Shown here one piece after another: positions 19,776 through 55,820 of a stretch of 64,000 nt of DNA. Made by a program: the position numbers and the translations under genes. Positions within the stretch are counted from its first letter, which is position 1; each line of letters begins with the position of its first letter. Under the pieces are notes generated by a model. It ran no database searches and was not told where the DNA came from. It was given only the letters and a program-made list of their open reading frames with translations. Source of the DNA: the human T2T-CHM13v2.0 reference genome, Homo sapiens; assembly GCF_009914755.1 (NCBI RefSeq), contig NC_060944.1. One strand, given 5' to 3'.

Positions 19776-20115
<340 letters not shown>

Positions 20116-20273
20116 TCAGGCACCCTGGTTTCAGGCCGCGGCCTCAGCACTGCCTAGCTGGGAGGTGAGTGCAGGCAAATCTCCACCTCTCTGTAACATG
20201 GGGCATTTACATTTGGGAAATAGGAACCTCCTTCATACTGGTTTTGAGGATTCAGTCAGCTAAAGGATAGCTA

Positions 20274-21148
<875 letters not shown>

Positions 21149-28169: not shown

Positions 28170-28560
28170 TAGCTGTTTTGGCATCTGCTCTGTTGTCACC
28201 ACCTCCCCACGGCACGGGTCAGGGTCTGTCACAGCCTCGTGGCCCCACGCACTTCACCTAGTACATGCCCCTGCTGGATAATAAGGTTTGTGTGTGACTG
28301 ATGTGGGGGATATCTTTGGCCAGTGGTGGCATCCCCTCAAGACTTTGTCTCGAATGAGGGTGGGTAGGGCCTGTGTGTGTCTGTCTTGGTCATTGCAGTC
28401 TTGACCCTCGTTCTCCCTGCTCCAGAAATCCTTGCGGACGGAATGGCTAAGCCCAGAGCTAGGGCCAAGTCAGGCAGGGCTTCTGCATTGGAAGGGGCTT
28501 GAGAGGGTTGGGGGCTTCACCATCTCACCTCTCCCCTGCCCTTCTCTCATCCATCTGCAG

Positions 28561-28922
28561 GTTCATCATGCCTAGTGGCGTATAAGAAGACCCCGCCACC
28601 GGTCCCTCCACGCACCACTTCAAAGCCGTTCATCTCAGTCACAGTCCAGAGCAGTACTGAGTCTGCCCAGGACACCTACCTGGACAGCCAGGACCACAAG
28701 AGCGAGGTGACTAGCCAGTCGGGCCTGAGCAACTCGTCGGACAGCCTGGACAGCAGTACCCGACCGCCCAGCGTGACACGGGGTGGAGTCGCCCCAGCCC
28801 CTGAGGCCCCAGAGCCACCCCCAAAACATGCAGCTCTGAAAAGTGAACAAGGGACGCTGACCAGCTCTGAGTCCCACCCCGAGGCCGCCCCCAAAAGGAA
28901 ACTGTCATCGATAGGAATACAA
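28561..28922 (+). CDS. DLGAP4: DLGAP4 internal coding exon (362 nt, phase 1 to 0): (G)SSCLVAYKKTPPPVPPRTTSKPF...KRKLSSIGIQ
   Basis: Pyrimidine tract and ctgcag acceptor end at 28560; donor CAA|gtaggg at 28923. Translation matches SAPAP4 and includes the TPPPVPPR SH3-ligand motif. Confidence 0.97.
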
Positions 28923-31028
28923 GTAGGGGCTCCTTTTGCACTCTGTGTCCTCAGCCCACTCCGTGCACCTGCCTGTGTGTAATTACATCTGGTAGAGGCC
29001 CACTAGGTCTCCTGGGAAAAGGTGGTTTGTCTCTCTATTTTGGGGGATCAGCCCCAAGTGGCCAAACCGAATTCCACCCATAGCCACGCCTCGCTGGTAT
29101 CTGTCCACACGTGCTGCTGGTCAGCAGCTGTGGGCATGTGTTTCTGCTCCTCCAGTGGGTTGTCCCAGTGAATGTAGTTACACTCAGCCAGCCATCTCCT
29201 GTCCACTGTTTGCCTGTCCACTGTCTGTCTGTCCACTCCACCCTTTGCCCTGCCAGCTGACCCGTGGGAGGCGGGACTGGCCTAACAGTTCTCTAATCCA
29301 AGGTCAGCTCGGGTGCGGAGGCCATAGCCCCGCTTGGCGGCAGGAGCAGCATGGAGCATAGACGCTGTTGGGCCAGGGGCCCAGGACCCAGGGCCCTTGA
29401 GCCATGGGGGTTGCTCGAGGGGAACTTTGCCCAGAGCCCTCTCGGGCCTTGGGGACAGGTAGGTGGCTTGAGGTACCAGGCCCATGTCATTGAGAAGGGT
29501 GATGCCGGTCTCACTGCCTCCCTCCATGGGATAGGGTCCAGGCGATGGTTCCCCAGGGTTAGGTGGCCAAAGTCAGCAGGCCCTCCATAGTCATGGCACA
29601 CAGCAGGGCAGGTGTGCCAGCTTCCCCTCCACTGCTTCATTGCACTCCTGCATGCACCCGATGTCAATAATCTGTCTTGTTTGCTGAGCTGGGGAAACTT
29701 GGGCCCTGCCTTGTAGTTTTTAAGAGTTTCTCTAAATCCAGATTGAGTGGACTCTCCCTGCCCTGGCTGGACCTGCAGACCAAACTAGGGCACGTTCAGA
29801 GCCATGAGGGAGGGGCAGCTACAGTGGGTGAGGGCGAGAGGGGAGACAGGGCCCCCCCAAGCCCAGGGGTTGAGTCAGGGAGGACGAGGCATTGTGTGTT
29901 GTGGCACAGGCTGCAAGGGACTCCTCCAGCCACCCCTGAGCAATTGGATGTGGCCCAGCTGATAACAAAGCACTGGAATGCAGGAGCGTGGGACACAAAG
30001 TGGAGCTTGAATGGAACAGAGAAGGCTCACTGAGCAATTTCTTGCAGTTGCCTGTATTTGTTTCCTCCAAGAGGCAGCTCTAGGCTTCCACTTCCCCATG
30101 TATAAACAGAGAGAGAGTTGGCCAGGAGACTCTGCTGCTGTTTTCTGGGCTTCTTAAGTGTCCAGTCCCTGCGCTGCACAGGTGGGATTCTCAGAAACAC
30201 AGAGAGTAGCCTGATCTTCAACCCTTGGTCCTGACCACCCATATCTTTGGGCAGCCCCACCCTCTTGCTGGCCAAACCAGACGCTCTTATCTTCCCGGAA
30301 AGCCTAAGAGTTAGGACTACCCTTGATTCCTTTCACCCAGAAAATGACACCGGGATAAGGACTCTCTTAGGCCTGTCCTGGGCGTCCCATTCCCTGGATT
30401 CACCCCAGCCCCATTCTTGGTCTCATTGCAGCTCCTTGGAGATCCAGTGGTGCTGCATTCCTTGAGCCGGCTTTTGCCGAGGGGAAATGTGGCTGCATCC
30501 CTGTCCCAGAAAGCTTCCCTGGCCCCTACTTCTCTCCACAAGGCCAAGAGACTGAAGAGTCCCCAGTTTCTGAGGATGCCCTGAACCCTTGGTGCCTCAT
30601 GCCCTAGATTGAGTGTGGGTTTCTCCCTCATTCTTGAGTGATGATAGGAAAGCTGGCCTGGCTGCCCCATGGCCCGGGACCTTTGTCCCAGAGAAGAAAG
30701 GCAGGCGCAGGGCATCACTGTTGTCCTGTTCCACTTCACAGGAGTGGAGGGAGTGACAGCTTTCCACTTGGCCCTGACCCCAGTCCTTCCTACTGCTCCC
30801 CAGGGCCACCCAGTGCTAAAGGTAACCTCAGCCAAGTGTGAATAACGTCCAGGGACTTCGGTGGCTCCTGTGGGTGGCAGTTTCTGAATCTAGAACTGCC
30901 GTCCAGGGTTTGCCCTTAGTGCAGGCGCCTCTGGCCTGCCCTCCAGGTTTCTGCCACAGGGTTCAGGGAGTGATCTTTGCCTCAAGACAGCCGCCAGCTT
31001 CAACTACACCAGATAACGGCTGTGGCTT

Positions 31029-31044
31029 TGTGTGTGTGTGTGTG
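31029..31044 (+). repeat. (TG)8 microsatellite upstream of the exon A pyrimidine tract
   Basis: Direct reading. Confidence 0.9.
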
Positions 31045-31097
31045 TTTTCTTTCTCTTTCGTCGTCCTTTTTTTTTTTTCTCTCTGATGCGTGTGAAG

Positions 31098-31177
31098 GAG
31101 AGGACTAGAAGGAACGGTTCCCACCTCTCGGAGGACAACGGACCCAAAGCGATCGATGTGATGGCACCCTCCTCAGA
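31098..31177 (+). CDS. DLGAP4: DLGAP4 mutually exclusive exon A (80 nt, phase 0 to 2): ERTRRNGSHLSEDNGPKAIDVMAPSS(E)
   Basis: Long U/C tract at 31045-31084, gaag| acceptor and GA|gtaggg donor. Open in frame with both flanking exons. I recall this peptide from a SAPAP4 isoform. Not shown in the ORF track. Confidence 0.85.
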
Positions 31178-31443
31178 GTAGGGAAAGCCAGTCATCTCCA
31201 CCCCATCCCACCTCCCGCCCACCTGCCCGCCCGCCCGCCTGCCCGCCTCCACGCGAATGAGCAGTGCCCGGCTTAACCTGGTCCGGCCTCGGGCCCACGT
31301 GCAGTGTCCGCATGCCTCGTGTCTGTCTGTCCACACGTCCGTTTGCGTCGTCCCACTAATGTGAATTTCAGCAGCAAGTGTGGTGTTTGTTTTTTATTTT
31401 TGTCTTTGTCTCCGTGCCGTTGCTGTCGTTGTCCTTCAATAAG

Positions 31444-31532
31444 GTTGACTGCATTCAGCCAGTGCCAAAAGAGGAGCCCAGTCCCGCTACCAAATTCCAG
31501 TCCATCGGGGTTCAGGTAGAGGACGACTGGCG
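31444..31532 (+). CDS. DLGAP4: DLGAP4 mutually exclusive exon B (89 nt, phase 0 to 2): VDCIQPVPKEEPSPATKFQSIGVQVEDDW(R)
   Basis: Branch-like cactaat near 31354-31360, U-rich tract, aataag| acceptor and CG|gtaagt donor. Encodes the GVQVE motif shared with GKAP. Confidence 0.93.
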
Positions 31533-32054
31533 GTAAGTCGGACAGAGGTGGCGGCTGCTTCTCCCCTCTCCTCTCCCTCCCTCCGCTCTCACCTCTCCTG
31601 CTCTCCCTAACCCACTTCTCCTTGCTGGATTTCTAATAACCAAGCTGGGTTTGGGTTGCGGGTGGTGGCCCAGGCATGGGAGGCTGGGCAGGGGCGGGCG
31701 GGTGGACAGATGAGCATTTGCTCTGTGAGACCAGTCACCCACGGGGGCCATGGCTGGGCCAGGACATGGCGTCAGCTGCCCTGATGCTGGTGGTCTTCCT
31801 GGCCCCACTGCAGTAAACAGGCAACCTTATGACCTTGTCCTCGTGTGTGTGTGCGTGTGGGCTTGGGCGGGATGGGGCAAGGGCTGAGCCAAGAATGAGA
31901 TGGGGGCTGTGGGACCCGCTTCAGGCGCATGGTGAGCAGATGATGCATCCGTTTCTCTGTCTCCCGTGTGTCCGGGTCAAGGCGGCCTCTGGTCTCTGGC
32001 CCTCTTGGTGACTCACTCCTTCCTGTCCCCACCCCATCCACCCCCTACCCACAG

Positions 32055-32467
32055 AAGCAGCGTCCCCTCTCACAGTATGTCCTCCCGACGGGACACAGAC
32101 TCGGATACCCAGGATGCCAATGACTCAAGCTGTAAGTCATCTGAGAGGAGCCTCCCGGACTGTACCCCTCACCCCAACTCCATCAGCATCGATGCCGGTC
32201 CCCGGCAGGCCCCCAAGATTGCCCAGATCAAGCGCAACCTCTCCTATGGAGACAACAGCGACCCTGCCCTAGAGGCGTCCTCGCTGCCCCCACCCGACCC
32301 CTGGCTCGAGACCTCCTCCAGCTCCCCAGCAGAGCCGGCACAGCCAGGGGCCTGCCGCCGAGACGGCTACTGGTTCCTAAAGCTACTGCAGGCAGAAACA
32401 GAGCGGCTGGAAGGCTGGTGCTGCCAGATGGACAAGGAGACCAAAGAGAACAACCTCTCTGAAGAAG
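32055..32467 (+). CDS. DLGAP4: DLGAP4 coding exon (413 nt, phase 2 to 1): SSVPSHSMSSRRD...RRDGYWFLKLLQAETERLEGWCCQMDKETKENNLSEE; start of the GH1/GKAP domain
   Basis: acag| acceptor at 32054 and GAAG|gtgggt donor. Overlaps ORF 31966..32595. Contains the family motif RDGxWFLKLLQAE. Confidence 0.97.
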
Positions 32468-32919
32468 GTGGGTGCCACATGGATGGTCCTTGGGCAAGGG
32501 TAGAAGGTGTTGGCAGCTGGTTTCAGCTGGTGGCCAGCAGCTTCCGAACTTCTGAGTGGGGGTCTCTTAGGTTCTCTTCTTGGGCTAGTTTTTGAGCTCC
32601 CTTCTTACTTTCTTCGCATTCTTCCATCCATCCACCTATTTAACCAAACCTCTTTCCAGAAAGGGTTGCTGGTGATAGCTGTTTGTTGTGCAGGCTGTGA
32701 GGCCACCCACACCTGGGTTTGAATCCCAGCTCCTCCCTTACTAGTGAAGTAACCTTGGTCAGGTTACTCCGAGCCCCCATTTCCTCATCTGTAAAATGGA
32801 GCTAATCCTCTGCTCACTATATGAGCATGTTGTAAGGATTGAATGTGGTCGTGCATGTGAAGGGCCTGATGACCTGTCAGACACAGAGAAAAGTGGGAGC
32901 CTAATTATGCCTTCAACAA

Positions 32920-33719: not shown

Positions 33720-37240
<3,521 letters not shown>

Positions 37241-37320
37241 ATTTAAGATAAACAGTTGAGGCACTGAGAAGCTGACTGGCAGTTTTGTGTGGGTAGGGCT
37301 TGTTTTAAGTAGGCTTTCTA

Positions 37321-37862
<542 letters not shown>

Positions 37863-38499
37863 TTTCACCATATATTCAATATAAAACTATTGCAATATCT
37901 TATATTCCTTTTCATAGTAAGTCTTTAAAACTTAGTGTATATTTTACTCTTACAGCACATCTTAATTCAGACAAGCAACATTTCAGGTGCTTACTAACGA
38001 CATGTGGCTAGTAGCTGCTGTATTGAGCACAGATTGAGACAGTAAGCCTGGGGCAGGGTGCACAGATTGCTTCATGCCAATAGGGTGATTCTGTGGATTT
38101 GATTCCCTTTAACTTTCCTTTACTATACTTAATTCTAGTTATTTCTAGAGCAAGAAGATGTTTACCTGCAAAGGAAATTATGTCATACCAAACGATATTG
38201 GTATTACCTTCCTGTCTACCTGGGAGGGAAGAGGTCTTTTATGATGTTTCTGGATAACCACACCAGAACTCCTGCAGTTGAACATGAACTCTAGAGGGGG
38301 CCCTTTTCATAGCCCTGTATCAGTTACTGTAACTTACAGACAGATGGAGTCACATAGCTCATGTCCCTTATCCAAAATACATAGGTCAGGGAACTCAGCA
38401 GTGCCCACCCACCCAGGTGGCTGCCTGTATTGACTGAATTTTGCATTGCCCTCTTGTCTAAACCTGAAGAACTTTAAACTTGACAATGTTCTTTTCAGA

Positions 38500-39383
38500 T
38501 AATTTATTTTTCTGAATTGTGGTTAAATATATATAACATGAAAATTACCATTTCAACCAAGTTTACAGTCTGTGGCATTAAATTCACACTGTTGTATAAC
38601 CATCACCACCGTCCATCTCTAGAACTTGTTTTGTCTTCCCCAGCTGAAATTCTGTACCCATTAAACACTAACTCCCCATTCCCTCCTACCCCCAGCCACT
38701 GGCAGCCACCACTCTACTTTGTCTCTATGAGTTTGACTATTCTAGCTACTTCATGTAAGTGGAACCATGCAGCATTTGTTCTTCTGTGACTGGCGTATTT
38801 CACTTTGCATAATGTCTTCAAGGTTCATCCATAGCATGTGTCACAATTCCCTCCCTTGTTAAGGCTGAGTAATATTCTATTGTATGTAGAGACTACATTT
38901 TATGTATCTATTCATTTGCCAATGGATAGGTGGATTGCATCTACCTTTTGGCCGTTGTGAATAATGTTTCCTGTCTCTTAAGAATGATACTCTTCATTGA
39001 AATTGCAAGGCTCTCTGATTAAATTCTGTACATCCACTCAAGGCCCTGACTTGTGGGCACAAAAGTTGTTTTTTTTTTGTTTTGTTTTGTTTTGTTTTTG
39101 TGAGACAGAGTCGCACTCTGTTGCCCAGGCTGGAGTGCAGTGGTACAATTTCGGCTCACCACAACCTCCGCCTCCTGGGTGCAAGTGATTCTCGTGCCTC
39201 AGCCTCCTGAGTAGCTGGGATTACAGGCACATGCCACCACGTCCAGCTAATTTTTGTATTTTTAGTAGAGACAGGGTTTCACCATGTTGGCCAGGCTGGT
39301 CTTGAACTCCTGACCTCAAGTGATCTGCCCACCTCGCCCTCCCAAAATGCTGGGATTACAGGTGTGAGCCACCACACCCAGCC
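38500..39383 (-). mobile_element. L1MB-like 3' end (38500-38970) and an antisense AluS (39067-39383)
   Basis: Consensus similarity by eye. Confidence 0.8.
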
Positions 39384-39534
39384 GTGGCCACAAGTTTTAA
39401 GGTCACCCCTCTTAAATCTGTGAGGAACTCCACCAAGGAGATACCATTCGTAGCTGGGCCTCAGAGAATATCTACAGGCTGGGGGAGAGGAAAGGCATTC
39501 CAGATGGAGGGAGCAAAGACACAGAAGCAGGAAG

Positions 39535-40101
39535 GGCATAACAAGTCACGCCAAACCTAATGGCACAAAACAACCATTTTATTATGGTCACAGATTCTGT
39601 ATGTCAGCAGTTCAGAAAGAGCGTGGCAGGAACATCTTGTTTCTTCTCCATACAGCCTGGGGCTTCAGATGGGAAGGCTCAAGGGCTTGGGGTGACATGA
39701 CACCTGAGGTATGGAATTACCTAAAGGTAGTTAACGTGTGTGCCTGGCACTTAAACAAGGATGACTCAAAGGCCAGGACTGCCAGCCACAGCCCCTGTGT
39801 ATGTCCCTCCACGTGCCTTTGCTCCCTCGCAGCATGGCAGCCTTCTTGCATGGTGGCTCCAGGCCCAAGTGTGTGTTGAACCCTGAGGCTGCATCCTTTT
39901 CTGACCTAGCCCTGGAAGTCACGTAGTAACTCTTCCACTGTATTTGACTGGTTACAAGCAAGTCACAAGCCCAAGGCGGGGCTTCAGGTTGAAGGAGGGA
40001 AGTATTAGACCCTACCTCTTCATAGGGAAGTATCAAGGTTTCAGAAGAGGAGGAGGGACAGGAGAGACTGTTGGGGCCTTCAGAAAATACAATCTGCCAC
40101 A
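39535..40101 (-). mobile_element. MLT1-family (ERVL-MaLR) solo LTR
   Basis: aaacaaccatttttattatggtcacagattctgt...aatacaatctgccaca. Confidence 0.7.
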
Positions 40102-40139
40102 GCAAAGAAGCAGTTACATCCACTGTTAAGCTGCAGTAA

Positions 40140-44290
<4,151 letters not shown>

Positions 44291-44307
44291 TACCTTGTCC
44301 TGACCGT

Positions 44308-46940
<2,633 letters not shown>

Positions 46941-47464
46941 AATGTGGGAGGGATGCGTCCATCCAAAAGATGAGCTTGAGTTTACTGTTTTCCATTCATT
47001 GCATGTCTGTATCACACCACTTTCTATAAAATGGTTTGTCCATTTCTCCTTAAAAAACTTTTGTTTTATATATTTTGAAGATATTGGATGGATCAAGTTT
47101 AGAATTGTAATATTCCTGGCAGATGTTCACTGATCCATTCTGTTTTTCAGAATCTCTGTTTGTGTTTGCCTAAGAGTTATATGTATTATGACTATTACAG
47201 TAGCAGACTTCCTTTGATTAGTGTTTGTCTGGTATATCTCTTTCCATCCATTTACTTTTTACCTTTCACTGTCCTTATTAATCATGTCTCTTGTAATCAG
47301 CATATACCTGGATTTTATGTTTTATCCAGTTTCCTGATTTTTATTTTAGAAATAGGTAGTGTAGTCCATTTTTACGAGGTGACTTCTATATATTTAGGTT
47401 CATTCTTACCATGTTATTTTGGGGGATTTGTGCTTTTTAAATGTATTTTAATTTATTTATTTAA

Positions 47465-47572
<108 letters not shown>

Positions 47573-47679
47573 TGAGCCCAGCCTCCTTTTCTGAGGTGCC
47601 TTTTTTCCTCTTTCTTCCCTTCTTTTGGATTAACTCCTCTCCTCACTCCTTTTACAAACCCTACTAGTTTTGAGGCTAT

Positions 47680-48060
47680 ATTAATTGGGATTACATTTGC
47701 CTACAAATAACACTAAAACATTTCTAAAAAGTGATTTAAACAAGACTGTTTATTTCATTCTCAAGAATGTCTCAGATAGTGATGGTGGAGCCACAGGCTT
47801 TTTTGTTTCCTTGCAGTTTGATGCCATTAATTGGCTTTCATTGATAAGATCTTCTCAACTGTCAGAGTGCTGCTGGATCCCAGCATCCTAAGTGCATTCC
47901 AGCCAGCAAAGGAACCAACAGCAAAGGAGAACAGCTGGCCCACGCACTGCTTCTGCTTCCACTGCTTTGGCCAGAATTTAGACATACAACTATGCATATC
48001 TTGCTGCAGGGGAGTCTAGGAAATGCTTGATTCCAGGCTATGTGCCCAGTTAAAAATAAA
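47680..48060. mobile_element. Old MLT1 (J/K-like) LTR fragment
   Basis: Resemblance to MaLR LTR ends, judged by eye. Confidence 0.45.
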
Positions 48061-48243
48061 AGGTCCACACAGATCACTTGTTTTCAGAAGCCTATGCTGT
48101 GCTTAGTAGACAGTGTGCACATTATAGAGAGTTGGCATAATGCTAACAACAGAATCCTTATTCTAATCCTGATCCTAGTATAACTTGTTGTAGGATTCTA
48201 GTACTTCGCATGCCATGCCTCAGAGTTTTAATGTGACAGTACT

Positions 48244-55820
<7,577 letters not shown>

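What the first reader, a model, noticed from the sequence alone, without database searches (positions are those of the whole stretch)
29226..31712. Competing long-range RNA duplexes (docking site/selector-like) around the DLGAP4 mutually exclusive exons
Seen: a G-rich segment D (31679-31712, GGAGGCUGGGCAGGGGCGGGCGGGUGGACAGAUG) downstream of exon B has at least three complementary partners. S2 (31226-31250, between exons A and B) forms 23 bp, 21 of them G-C, in helices of 11+6+6, looping out exon B with its branch point and both splice sites. S1 (29226-29258, upstream of both exons) forms roughly 28 bp with bulges and G-U pairs over the same bases. S3 (31324-31334) pairs with 31702-31712. The octamer CTGTCCAC occurs five times (29101, 29199, 29214, 29229, 31327), and its complement GTGGACAG is in D at 31702. 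D also contains a G-quadruplex motif (31686-31702). Known: competing pairings control mutually exclusive exons in Dscam, 14-3-3 and Ate1. Inference: D:S2 hides exon B so exon A is used, while D:S1 or G4 folding releases it. I know of no description of this for DLGAP4. Caveat: D:S1 encloses both exons, so its role is less clear, and GC-rich low-complexity sequence pairs easily by chance.
Basis: partly seen in the sequence, partly recalled or inferred. Interest (0 to 1): 0.85.

Follow-up and report, generated by a model that had tools for sequence, protein, structure and literature searches.

The report
GC-rich helix bracketing DLGAP4 exon B
A C-rich simple repeat just after one alternative DLGAP4 exon and a G-rich block just after the next can pair in the pre-mRNA and loop the second exon out, but such pairs are common around repeats of this kind, and no conservation or experimental evidence could be obtained here.

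Summary
The sequence is as described. D (31679-31712) and S2 (31223-31250) form a 23-26 bp, almost all G-C helix of -54.6 kcal/mol. Each is the other's best partner in the 64-kb window. It ranks first of 1223 pairs outside masked repeats. Only 1 of 100 random chr20 exons has a stronger cross-exon pairing, and that one looks Alu-derived. It appears in the lowest-energy fold, with probability 0.55-0.81, in 7 of 8 local contexts. With G-quadruplexes allowed, a G4 plus D:S3 state is equal in energy.

S2 is a (CCCG)n-type microsatellite. Of 20 other such tracts in the genome, 4 have an even stronger partner within 800 nt, so chance can explain the complementarity. S1 is barely above nine other partners. 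S3 is an 11-bp helix. Three of the five CTGTCCAC copies are one 15-nt tandem repeat. Exons A and B are not homologous. RefSeq also lists transcripts with both exons and with neither.

This is a plausible exon-B loop-out helix, not a shown docking/selector system. Conservation could not be tested with these tools.

The parts
31098..31177 (+). Alternative exon A (80 nt, phase-compatible with exon B). Its 5' splice site reads AGA|GTAGGG. No counterpart was found in DLGAP1, DLGAP2 or DLGAP3.
   Evidence: RefSeq transcripts; frames; tblastn of the paralogue introns found nothing better than E 0.8.
31195..31255 (+). C-rich block that begins 18 nt after exon A's 5' splice site. It contains S2 (31223-31250) and a (CCCG)n-type microsatellite (31207-31248). 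This is the upstream arm of the loop-out helix.
   Evidence: TRF period 4 x 8.5, also periods 12 and 16. Best partner of D among 12,769 windows, -60.0 kcal/mol. The 26-mer has 124 matches at 3 or fewer mismatches genome-wide, against 42 for the reversed control pattern.
31324..31334 (+). S3, an 11-nt partner of 31702-31712 (9 Watson-Crick and 2 G-U pairs). It pairs only when the core of D is folded as a G4 or when S2 is blocked.
   Evidence: -16.4 kcal/mol. Partner of D in the lowest-energy fold with G4 allowed and when S2 is forced unpaired.
31444..31532 (+). Alternative exon B (89 nt), used in the RefSeq 'select' transcript. Its 5' splice site is the strong GCG|GTAAGT. It has homologues in DLGAP1, DLGAP2 and DLGAP3. 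D:S2 encloses it in a loop of about 430 nt.
31561..31608 (+). CU-rich low-complexity tract between exon B and D. It is the local alternative partner of D (-38.9 kcal/mol).
   Evidence: TRF. Duplex energy and partner when S2 is blocked. Partner of D in the 3.1-kb lowest-energy fold.
31679..31712 (+). D, a G-run block 146 nt after exon B's 5' splice site and the downstream arm of the helix. It contains a short-loop G4 motif at 31686-31702 and abuts GCATG at 31674-31678.
31842..31886 (+). D2, a second G-run/G4 block in the same intron (G4 motif 31859-31883). It is complementary to 31199-31255 and takes over S2 when D is blocked or when the transcript ends at 31900. It would also loop out exon B.
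   Evidence: Inverted repeat I2. -54.1 kcal/mol, and partner of S2 in the lowest-energy fold when D is forced unpaired. P(D:S2) falls to 0.06 in the 31098-31900 context. G4 motif.
29226..29258 (+). S1, the claimed upstream partner of D. It overlaps a 15-nt tandem repeat (29198-29237). It is not clearly above background and is probably not part of any mechanism.
   Evidence: -47.2 and -50.3 kcal/mol, with nine other loci within 3.2 kcal/mol. TRF. Does not pair with D in the 3.1-kb lowest-energy fold.

Best explanation
A C-rich simple repeat (S2, inside the block 31195-31255) lies just downstream of exon A. A G-run block (D, 31679-31712) lies 146 nt downstream of exon B, with a back-up block D2 at 31842-31886. 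In the pre-mRNA, S2 and D can form a 23-26 bp, nearly all G-C helix.

The helix puts exon B, with its 3' and 5' splice sites, in a loop of about 430 nt. It also draws exon A's 5' splice site towards the next constitutive exon. This would lower exon B use and favour the exon-A isoform.

D is released when it folds as an RNA G-quadruplex, is bound by G-run proteins, or pairs with the local CU tract or S3.

Shown: the complementarity, its rank, and its dominance in thermodynamic models. Inferred: that the helix forms in cells and changes splicing.

This is an ordinary exon loop-out built from low-complexity sequence. It is not a Dscam-type docking/selector array. S1 and the repeated octamer are most likely irrelevant.
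For: - Helix energy is -54.6 kcal/mol for the core and -76.6 extended over 31191-31255 with 31660-31714.
- S2 and D are reciprocal best partners in 64 kb.
- 0 of 1000 dinucleotide shuffles of either arm reach the observed energy.
- The pair is first of 1223 pairs outside masked repeats.
- It is stronger than the best cross-exon duplex of 99 of 100 random chr20 exons, whose mean is -35.0 with sd 10.0.
- It is in the lowest-energy fold, with mean pair probability 0.55-0.81, in 7 of 8 contexts from 623 to 1955 nt. This includes the moment D has just been transcribed, P = 0.81.
- Blocking S2 costs 17.9 kcal/mol and blocking D costs 39.6.
- A G4 plus S3 state is equal in energy.
- In the passages I read of PMC8052449, exons looped out by conserved complementary regions have lower inclusion, more so for more stable helices. 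Its top energy class starts at -30 kcal/mol.
Against: - S2 is a microsatellite. Of 20 other genomic (CCYG)n tracts, 4 have a stronger partner within 800 nt and 8 reach -55 or lower; among the 11 with G+C of at least 0.58 it is 4 of 11. The complementarity therefore needs no selection.
- The 3.1-kb lowest-energy fold does not contain D:S2; there D pairs with the local CU tract.
- P(D:S2) drops to 0.06 when the transcript ends at 31900.
- Exon B is the exon of the RefSeq 'select' transcript, so any loop-out is not dominant.
- The D side shows background CpG depletion (observed/expected 0.26), unlike the S2 side (0.74-0.94). This gives no hint of joint constraint.
- The paralogues have exon B homologues, but I saw no comparable G-run block in the 700 nt printed downstream of each; this was by eye, not by a motif scan.
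- G-runs and C-tracts are expected to be protein-bound in cells.
- There are no conservation, probing or mutational data.
Confidence: 0.4

Rival explanations
1. The two tracts act as independent single-stranded elements, not as a helix. D and D2 would be intronic G-run or RNA G-quadruplex splicing enhancers for exon B, with G-run-binding proteins and the adjacent GCATG as an RBFOX-type site. The C-rich tract after exon A would be a poly-C-binding-protein site. Their complementarity is then a by-product of composition.
For: - D is a canonical short-loop G4 146 nt after a 5' splice site.
- 2 of the 10 sense-strand G4 motifs in 64 kb fall in this 522-nt intron.
- GCATG abuts D at 31674.
- A preprint passage lists Dlgap4 among the top-loading events of a developmental, RBFOX2-linked splicing axis.
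- Exon B is the 'select' exon, which fits a downstream enhancer.
- Partners for (CCYG)n tracts arise by chance in 4 of 20 loci.
- That intronic G-runs and G4s act as enhancers is from my own knowledge, not from a call.
Against: No protein-binding data could be consulted. A -55 kcal/mol duplex would compete strongly with single-strand binding, and it dominates the local ensembles. The two readings are not exclusive, because the helix would simply mask the enhancer.
Confidence: 0.3
2. Neutral low-complexity sequence. A (CCCG)n microsatellite and nearby G-rich tracts sit in a GC-rich, CpG-island-like stretch of the gene. They have no measurable effect on the A/B choice. That choice would be set by splice-site strength, protein regulators, and loss of the frame-shifted both-exon and neither-exon products by nonsense-mediated decay.
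For: - S2 is a microsatellite with 124 genome-wide near-matches.
- Equal or stronger partners occur at 4 of 20 control tracts.
- Both-exon and neither-exon transcripts exist. Each shifts the long reading frame into early stops, so frame plus decay already explains the apparent mutual exclusivity.
- D lies in CpG-depleted sequence.
Against: The pair is the strongest non-repeat pairing in 64 kb, and it brackets precisely a regulated exon. A helix this stable and this close to splice sites would be expected to have some effect if it forms at all.
Confidence: 0.3

Closest known systems
Exon loop-out by complementary intronic regions (PCCRs; Kalmykova et al. 2021, PMC8052449; passages read)
   Same: The two arms lie in the introns on either side of an alternative exon. 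The helix is far stronger than that catalogue's top class (below -30 kcal/mol). The predicted effect is lower inclusion of the enclosed exon.
   Different: PCCRs are defined on conserved intronic sequence, and conservation could not be tested here. DLGAP is not mentioned in that paper's main text (0 occurrences). Its supplementary tables were closed, so I could not check whether this pair is listed. One arm here is a microsatellite.
Competing RNA structures at ATE1 exons 7a/7b (Kalinina et al., PMC7797038; abstract in the search listing only)
   Same: It is a mammalian pair of alternative exons with one intronic element able to pair with more than one partner.
   Different: In ATE1 the elements are described as conserved and were tested. 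Here only one partner (S2) stands out, the exons are not homologous, and nothing has been tested.
Dscam1 and 14-3-3xi docking site/selector systems (recalled; Dscam papers seen only as listings)
   Same: A 'docking' element lies downstream of the cluster, and a complementary element lies just downstream of the upstream variable exon, so pairing loops out the later exon. That matches the geometry of D and S2.
   Different: - There is no comparable selector for exon B; the CU tract gives only -38.9 kcal/mol.
- S1 lies upstream of both exons.
- There are two unrelated exons rather than a duplicated array.
- Exclusivity is not strict in RefSeq.
Intronic G-run / RNA G-quadruplex splicing elements downstream of 5' splice sites (recalled)
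   Same: D and D2 are canonical G4 motifs 146 and about 330 nt after exon B's 5' splice site.
   Different: Here the G4 has a near-perfect C-rich complement 430 nt upstream, so duplex and quadruplex would compete.

Membership tests
Docking site/selector competing-structure control of mutually exclusive exons | A cluster of exons of which exactly one is included | tested here: inconclusive
   Coding RefSeq isoforms use A only or B only, and both exons are 2 mod 3 in length. Curated transcripts with both exons (for example NM_001388260) and with neither (NM_001388257) also exist, with the CDS then starting at 32077.
Docking site/selector competing-structure control of mutually exclusive exons | Variable exons are homologous tandem duplicates (typical of the known cases) | tested here: not met
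   BLASTP of the exon A peptide against the exon B peptide gave no alignment at E of 100 or less. Exon B has homologues in DLGAP1-3 and exon A has none.
Docking site/selector competing-structure control of mutually exclusive exons | One docking site with a distinct, comparably strong selector next to each variable exon | tested here: not met
   S2, downstream of exon A, is strong (-54.6 to -60 kcal/mol). The only candidate next to exon B is the CU tract at -38.9. S1 lies upstream of both exons and sits among nine equally good partners. S3 is 11 bp.
Docking site/selector competing-structure control of mutually exclusive exons | Conservation and compensatory substitutions of docking and selector sequences across species | not testable with these tools
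   No vertebrate genome other than this reference can be reached. The human paralogues show no equivalent by eye, but they also lack exon A.
Exon loop-out by intronic complementary regions (PCCR-type) | Complementary arms in the two flanking introns forming a stable helix (at least 10 nt, -15 kcal/mol or lower) | tested here: met
   23-26 bp, -54.6 kcal/mol, about 430 nt apart, enclosing exon B.
Exon loop-out by intronic complementary regions (PCCR-type) | Both arms lie in evolutionarily conserved intronic sequence | not testable with these tools
   The only proxy available is CpG observed/expected: 0.74-0.94 around S2 and 0.26 around D. This is ambiguous, because a CpG island and purifying selection give the same signal.
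Exon loop-out by intronic complementary regions (PCCR-type) | The complementarity exceeds what composition gives | tested here: inconclusive
   It exceeds the shuffles (0 of 1000 for each arm), the rest of the window and random exons (1 of 100 stronger). It does not exceed other (CCYG)n tracts (4 of 20 stronger).
Intronic RNA G-quadruplex / G-run element | Four or more runs of at least 3 G with loops of 7 nt or less on the sense strand near a 5' splice site | tested here: met
   31686-31702 (loops of 1-2 nt) and 31859-31883; there are 10 such motifs in 64 kb. A G4 is in the lowest-energy fold when the model allows it.
Intronic RNA G-quadruplex / G-run element | Folding or protein binding in cells | not testable with these tools
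   No probing or CLIP data were available.

The most novel reading that the evidence does not exclude
D is a three-state RNA switch: a long-range duplex with S2 (or S2 with D2), an RNA G-quadruplex with S3 pairing, or a local CU hairpin. On this reading it sets the exon A / exon B ratio of a postsynaptic scaffold gene during neuronal maturation. It would be a mammalian docking-site-like system assembled from a microsatellite and G-runs around two unrelated exons, rather than by exon duplication.
Probability: 0.1. Interest if true: 0.6.

Novelty: new member of a known kind. Interest (0 to 1): 0.3.

Why it matters
DLGAP4 (SAPAP4) is a postsynaptic scaffold protein. The A/B choice swaps a segment of 27-30 residues. 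Passages I read report that Dlgap4 exon use changes with neuronal maturation (PMC7815907) and after Fus silencing in cultured mouse neurons (PMC3737506).

If the D:S2 helix controls exon B, it would be a simple target for blocking oligonucleotides. It would also show that a microsatellite can create a splicing-regulatory helix.

As it stands this is a testable hypothesis of a known kind. It rests on thermodynamics alone, and a matched control shows that the complementarity could be accidental.

Tried and rejected
- Docking/selector with S1 is rejected as unsupported. S1 scores -50.3 kcal/mol, only 1.2 better than the next of nine other loci. It is absent from the 3.1-kb lowest-energy fold, and it overlaps a tandem repeat.
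- The octamer as a motif is rejected. Three of the five + strand copies are one 15-nt tandem array, and 1 of 100 shuffles reaches the raw count.
- Known RNA families: Rfam at E of 1 or less over 28400-32600 gave 0 matches.
- Paralogue test. Exon B homologues were located in DLGAP1, DLGAP2 and DLGAP3. By eye there is no D-like G-run block in their downstream flanks. This is weak evidence, because the paralogues lack exon A.
- RNAduplex on whole 266 x 300-nt flanks was discarded. The energies simply tracked G+C (r = -0.91) and spanned the whole flanks. It was replaced by 40 x 40-nt windows.
- circRNA link. circDLGAP4 is known from reviews, but its exon make-up was not found and the primary paper is not held. 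This was left open.
- Literature. Four searches gave nothing on RNA structure or G4 at this locus: DLGAP4 with 'mutually exclusive', 'G-quadruplex', 'RNA secondary structure' plus 'splicing' and 'exon inclusion'. A fifth, with 'ultraconserved', gave nothing relevant. Supplements were closed, including the PCCR tables of PMC8052449 and Fig. S10 of PMC7815907.
- Protein searches for exon A in other species were not run. The length filter would exclude full-length orthologues, and the answer does not bear on the RNA claim.
- Cross-species conservation and covariation could not be run, because no vertebrate DNA other than this reference is reachable.
Full report
**What is there.**
The window carries the 3' part of DLGAP4. 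RefSeq has two alternative exons between the constitutive exons 28561-28922 and 32055-32467. Exon A is 31098-31177 (80 nt) and exon B is 31444-31532 (89 nt).

Both exon lengths are 2 mod 3. A-only transcripts (NM_014902) and B-only transcripts (NM_001365621, the 'select' transcript) therefore keep the long reading frame. Including both exons, or neither, runs the frame into early stop codons. Both-exon and neither-exon transcripts are nevertheless curated, with the CDS then starting at 32077. 'Mutually exclusive' therefore describes the frame-preserving coding isoforms, not a strict rule.

The two exon peptides share no similarity. Exon B has recognisable homologues in DLGAP1, DLGAP2 and DLGAP3, and exon A has none. 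This is not a tandemly duplicated exon pair.

**Check of the observation.**
Every quoted segment reads as stated.
- RNAduplex gives D:S2 -54.6, D:S1 -47.2 and D:S3 -16.4 kcal/mol.
The 877-nt lowest-energy fold extends it to 14+6+6 = 26 bp, pairing 31223-31250 with 31679-31705.
- The G4 motif at 31686-31702 is canonical with loops of 1-2 nt.
- CTGTCCAC occurs at the five stated + strand positions, and its complement is in D.

**Is D:S2 more than chance? General nulls say yes.**
- Dinucleotide shuffles of D average -44.0 and of S2 -45.3 kcal/mol, against -60.0 observed for 40-nt arms. 0 of 1000 shuffles of either arm reach the observed value, z about -4.1.
- Across 12,769 windows of the 64-kb window, S2 is D's best partner by about 10 kcal/mol. 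Reciprocally, D is S2's best partner at -62.5.
- I scanned 2515 query positions for partners within 1 kb. S2:D ranked 34th. All 33 stronger pairs lie wholly inside masked repeats, and they look like inverted Alu pairs to me. Among the 1223 pairs with neither arm masked it is first, at -55.7 against -48.8 for the next.
- I sampled 100 random internal chr20 exons with the same flank geometry. Their best cross-exon 40 x 40-nt duplex averaged -35.0 with sd 10.0. Only one exceeded exon B's -60.6: DHX35 at -73.9, whose arms look Alu-derived to me. The next was -56.9.

**The matched null says no.**
TRF shows S2 is a microsatellite: CCCG x 8.5, also read with periods 12 and 16, at 31207-31248. Its 26-nt core has 124 genome matches at 3 or fewer mismatches, against 42 for the reversed control pattern.

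I took the first 20 of the 29 other distinct loci with 2 or fewer mismatches. For each I asked for the best partner of the tract within 800 nt on the same strand.
- 4 of 20 were stronger than DLGAP4's -63.7 kcal/mol (-64.8 to -69.3).
- 8 of 20 reached -55 or lower.
- Among the 11 loci with G+C of at least 0.58, 4 were stronger.

Shuffling overstates significance because it destroys the repeat periodicity. Given a (CCYG)n tract in GC-rich DNA, a partner this good turns up in roughly one locus in five. What is unusual is that such a tract sits 45 nt after an alternative exon's 5' splice site, not that it has a partner.

**The other claimed partners.**
- S1 (-50.3 kcal/mol) is D's second-best partner in the window. 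Nine other loci, several of which look Alu-derived to me, score -47.1 to -49.1.
- S1 overlaps a 15-nt x 2.7 tandem array at 29198-29237, which accounts for three of the five octamer copies.
- In the 3.1-kb lowest-energy fold S1 does not pair with D.
- The octamer count is 8 on both strands against 2.86 expected. One of 100 shuffles reaches it, even before the tandem copies are collapsed.
- S3 is an 11-bp helix.
One is the CU-rich tract 31561-31608 just upstream of D, at -38.9 kcal/mol. The other is a second G-run/G4 block, D2 (31842-31886, G4 motif 31859-31883). D2 is complementary to the same C-rich block, at -54.1 kcal/mol.

**Folding models.**

| Context | Mean P(D:S2) | D:S2 in lowest-energy fold |
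|---|---|---|
| 31098-31720 (D just transcribed) | 0.81 | yes |
| 31098-31800 | 0.73 | yes |
| 31098-31900 | 0.06 (D2 competes for S2) | yes |
| 31098-32054 | 0.61 | yes |
| 31098-32467 | 0.55 | no |
| 30900-32054 | 0.63 | yes |
| 30500-32054 | 0.73 | yes |
| 30100-32054 | 0.62 | yes |
| 31178-32054 (877 nt) | 0.64 | yes |

- In the 3132-nt fold of 28923-32054, D pairs with the CU tract instead.
- Forcing S2 unpaired costs 17.9 kcal/mol. D then pairs with the CU tract and S3.
- Forcing D unpaired costs 39.6 kcal/mol. S2 then pairs with D2, which again encloses exon B.
- With G-quadruplexes allowed, the lowest-energy fold has a G4 at 31686-31702 plus 31703-31712 paired with S3. Its energy is -363.7 against -363.1 kcal/mol, and P(D:S2) falls to 0.37.

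These are equilibrium models of naked RNA.

**Context.**
- The block 31000-31560 (exon A, the A-B intron and exon B) has CpG observed/expected of 0.74-0.94. The window median is 0.22 and the 99th percentile is 0.75.
- The D side is at background, 0.26-0.28. The S2 side therefore lies in a CpG-island-like or constrained block and the D side does not. This gives no sign of joint constraint.
- Two of the ten sense-strand G4 motifs in 64 kb lie in the 522-nt intron after exon B.
- GCATG abuts D at 31674.
- No Rfam family matches the region.
- In DLGAP1, DLGAP2 and DLGAP3 I saw no comparable G-run block in the 700 nt after the exon B homologue. This was by eye.

**Literature.**
- Searches pairing DLGAP4 with 'mutually exclusive', 'G-quadruplex', 'RNA secondary structure' plus 'splicing', and 'exon inclusion' found no description of an RNA structure at these exons.
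- PMC7815907: mouse non-neurons and immature neurons mainly use one Dlgap4 exon, and mature neurons use both. The figure was not seen, so the identity of the exons is unverified.
- A preprint lists Dlgap4 among the top-loading events on an RBFOX2-related developmental axis.
- PMC3737506 lists Dlgap4 among 18 alternative splicing events specific to motor and cortical neurons, found in Fus-silenced primary mouse neurons.
- PMC8052449: looped-out exons have lower inclusion, more so with stronger helices. Its false-discovery rates run from 10% to over 50%.
- The ATE1 and Dscam papers were seen only as search listings.

**Mechanism and likelihoods.**
The most likely single reading (0.4) is an ordinary exon loop-out. 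The S2:D helix, with D2 as back-up, encloses exon B and brings exon A's 5' splice site towards the next exon. That lowers exon B use. G4 folding, G-run-binding proteins or the local CU hairpin would free exon B.

The helix cannot by itself explain why exon A is skipped when exon B is used. Frame-shift plus nonsense-mediated decay already explains the apparent exclusivity.

There are two rivals, each at 0.3. In the first, the tracts act as separate single-stranded protein or G4 elements. In the second, they are neutral low-complexity sequence.

The docking/selector framing fails three of its tested features: homologous exons, a selector for each exon, and a distinguished S1.

**Verdict.**
If real, this is a new member of a known kind. 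Interest is modest, because the only evidence is thermodynamic, a matched control shows the complementarity can arise by chance, and the decisive comparative and experimental tests could not be run here.

Noticed in passing
window 31000-31560: CpG-island-like block covering exon A, the A-B intron and exon B. CpG observed/expected is 0.74-0.94, against a window median of 0.22 and a 99th percentile of 0.75. This means either an intragenic unmethylated island or strong constraint on this intron. The flanking introns are at 0.23 and 0.34.
   Followed up: partly
window 31842-31886: A second sense-strand G4 block (motif 31859-31883) in the intron after exon B. It is complementary to 31199-31255 at -54.1 kcal/mol and takes over S2 when D is blocked.
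   Followed up: partly
window 31029-31097: (TG)8.5 at 31029-31045, followed by long T-rich tracts upstream of exon A's 3' splice site. From recall, UG repeats near a 3' splice site are typical TDP-43 binding sites. A preprint passage names DLGAP4 as a TDP-43 cryptic-exon target but does not say where (PMC12157639).
   Followed up: no
window 31174-31183: Exon A's 5' splice site reads AGA|GTAGGG. This is close to the AGAGTAAG motif reported as enriched at branaplam-induced exons. The same paper names DLGAP4 among transcripts with such an exon, with the place not given (PMC9649613, passage).
   Followed up: no
window 29085-29112, 29201-29248 and 31299-31346: The S3 region is a diverged direct repeat of sequence near S1. 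One 28-nt stretch is 79% identical and one 48-nt stretch is 73% identical, including a shared 13-nt run. The origin is unknown.
   Followed up: no
window 31310 and 31674: GCATG (RBFOX-type core) occurs 134 nt upstream of exon B, and again directly abutting D 142 nt downstream of exon B. A preprint lists Dlgap4 among top events on an RBFOX2-linked axis.
   Followed up: no
window about 19800-20700 and 37100-51800: Many very strong inverted pairs (-54 to -68 kcal/mol), all inside masked repeats and Alu-like by eye, in the long introns. This is potential double-stranded RNA or a back-splicing context. circDLGAP4 is known from reviews, but its exon make-up was not found.
   Followed up: no
window 28561-32467 (transcript models): RefSeq curates all four combinations of exons A and B. 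In the both-exon and neither-exon models the CDS starts at a downstream ATG at 32077, so these exons then serve as 5' UTR of a short C-terminal isoform.
   Followed up: partly
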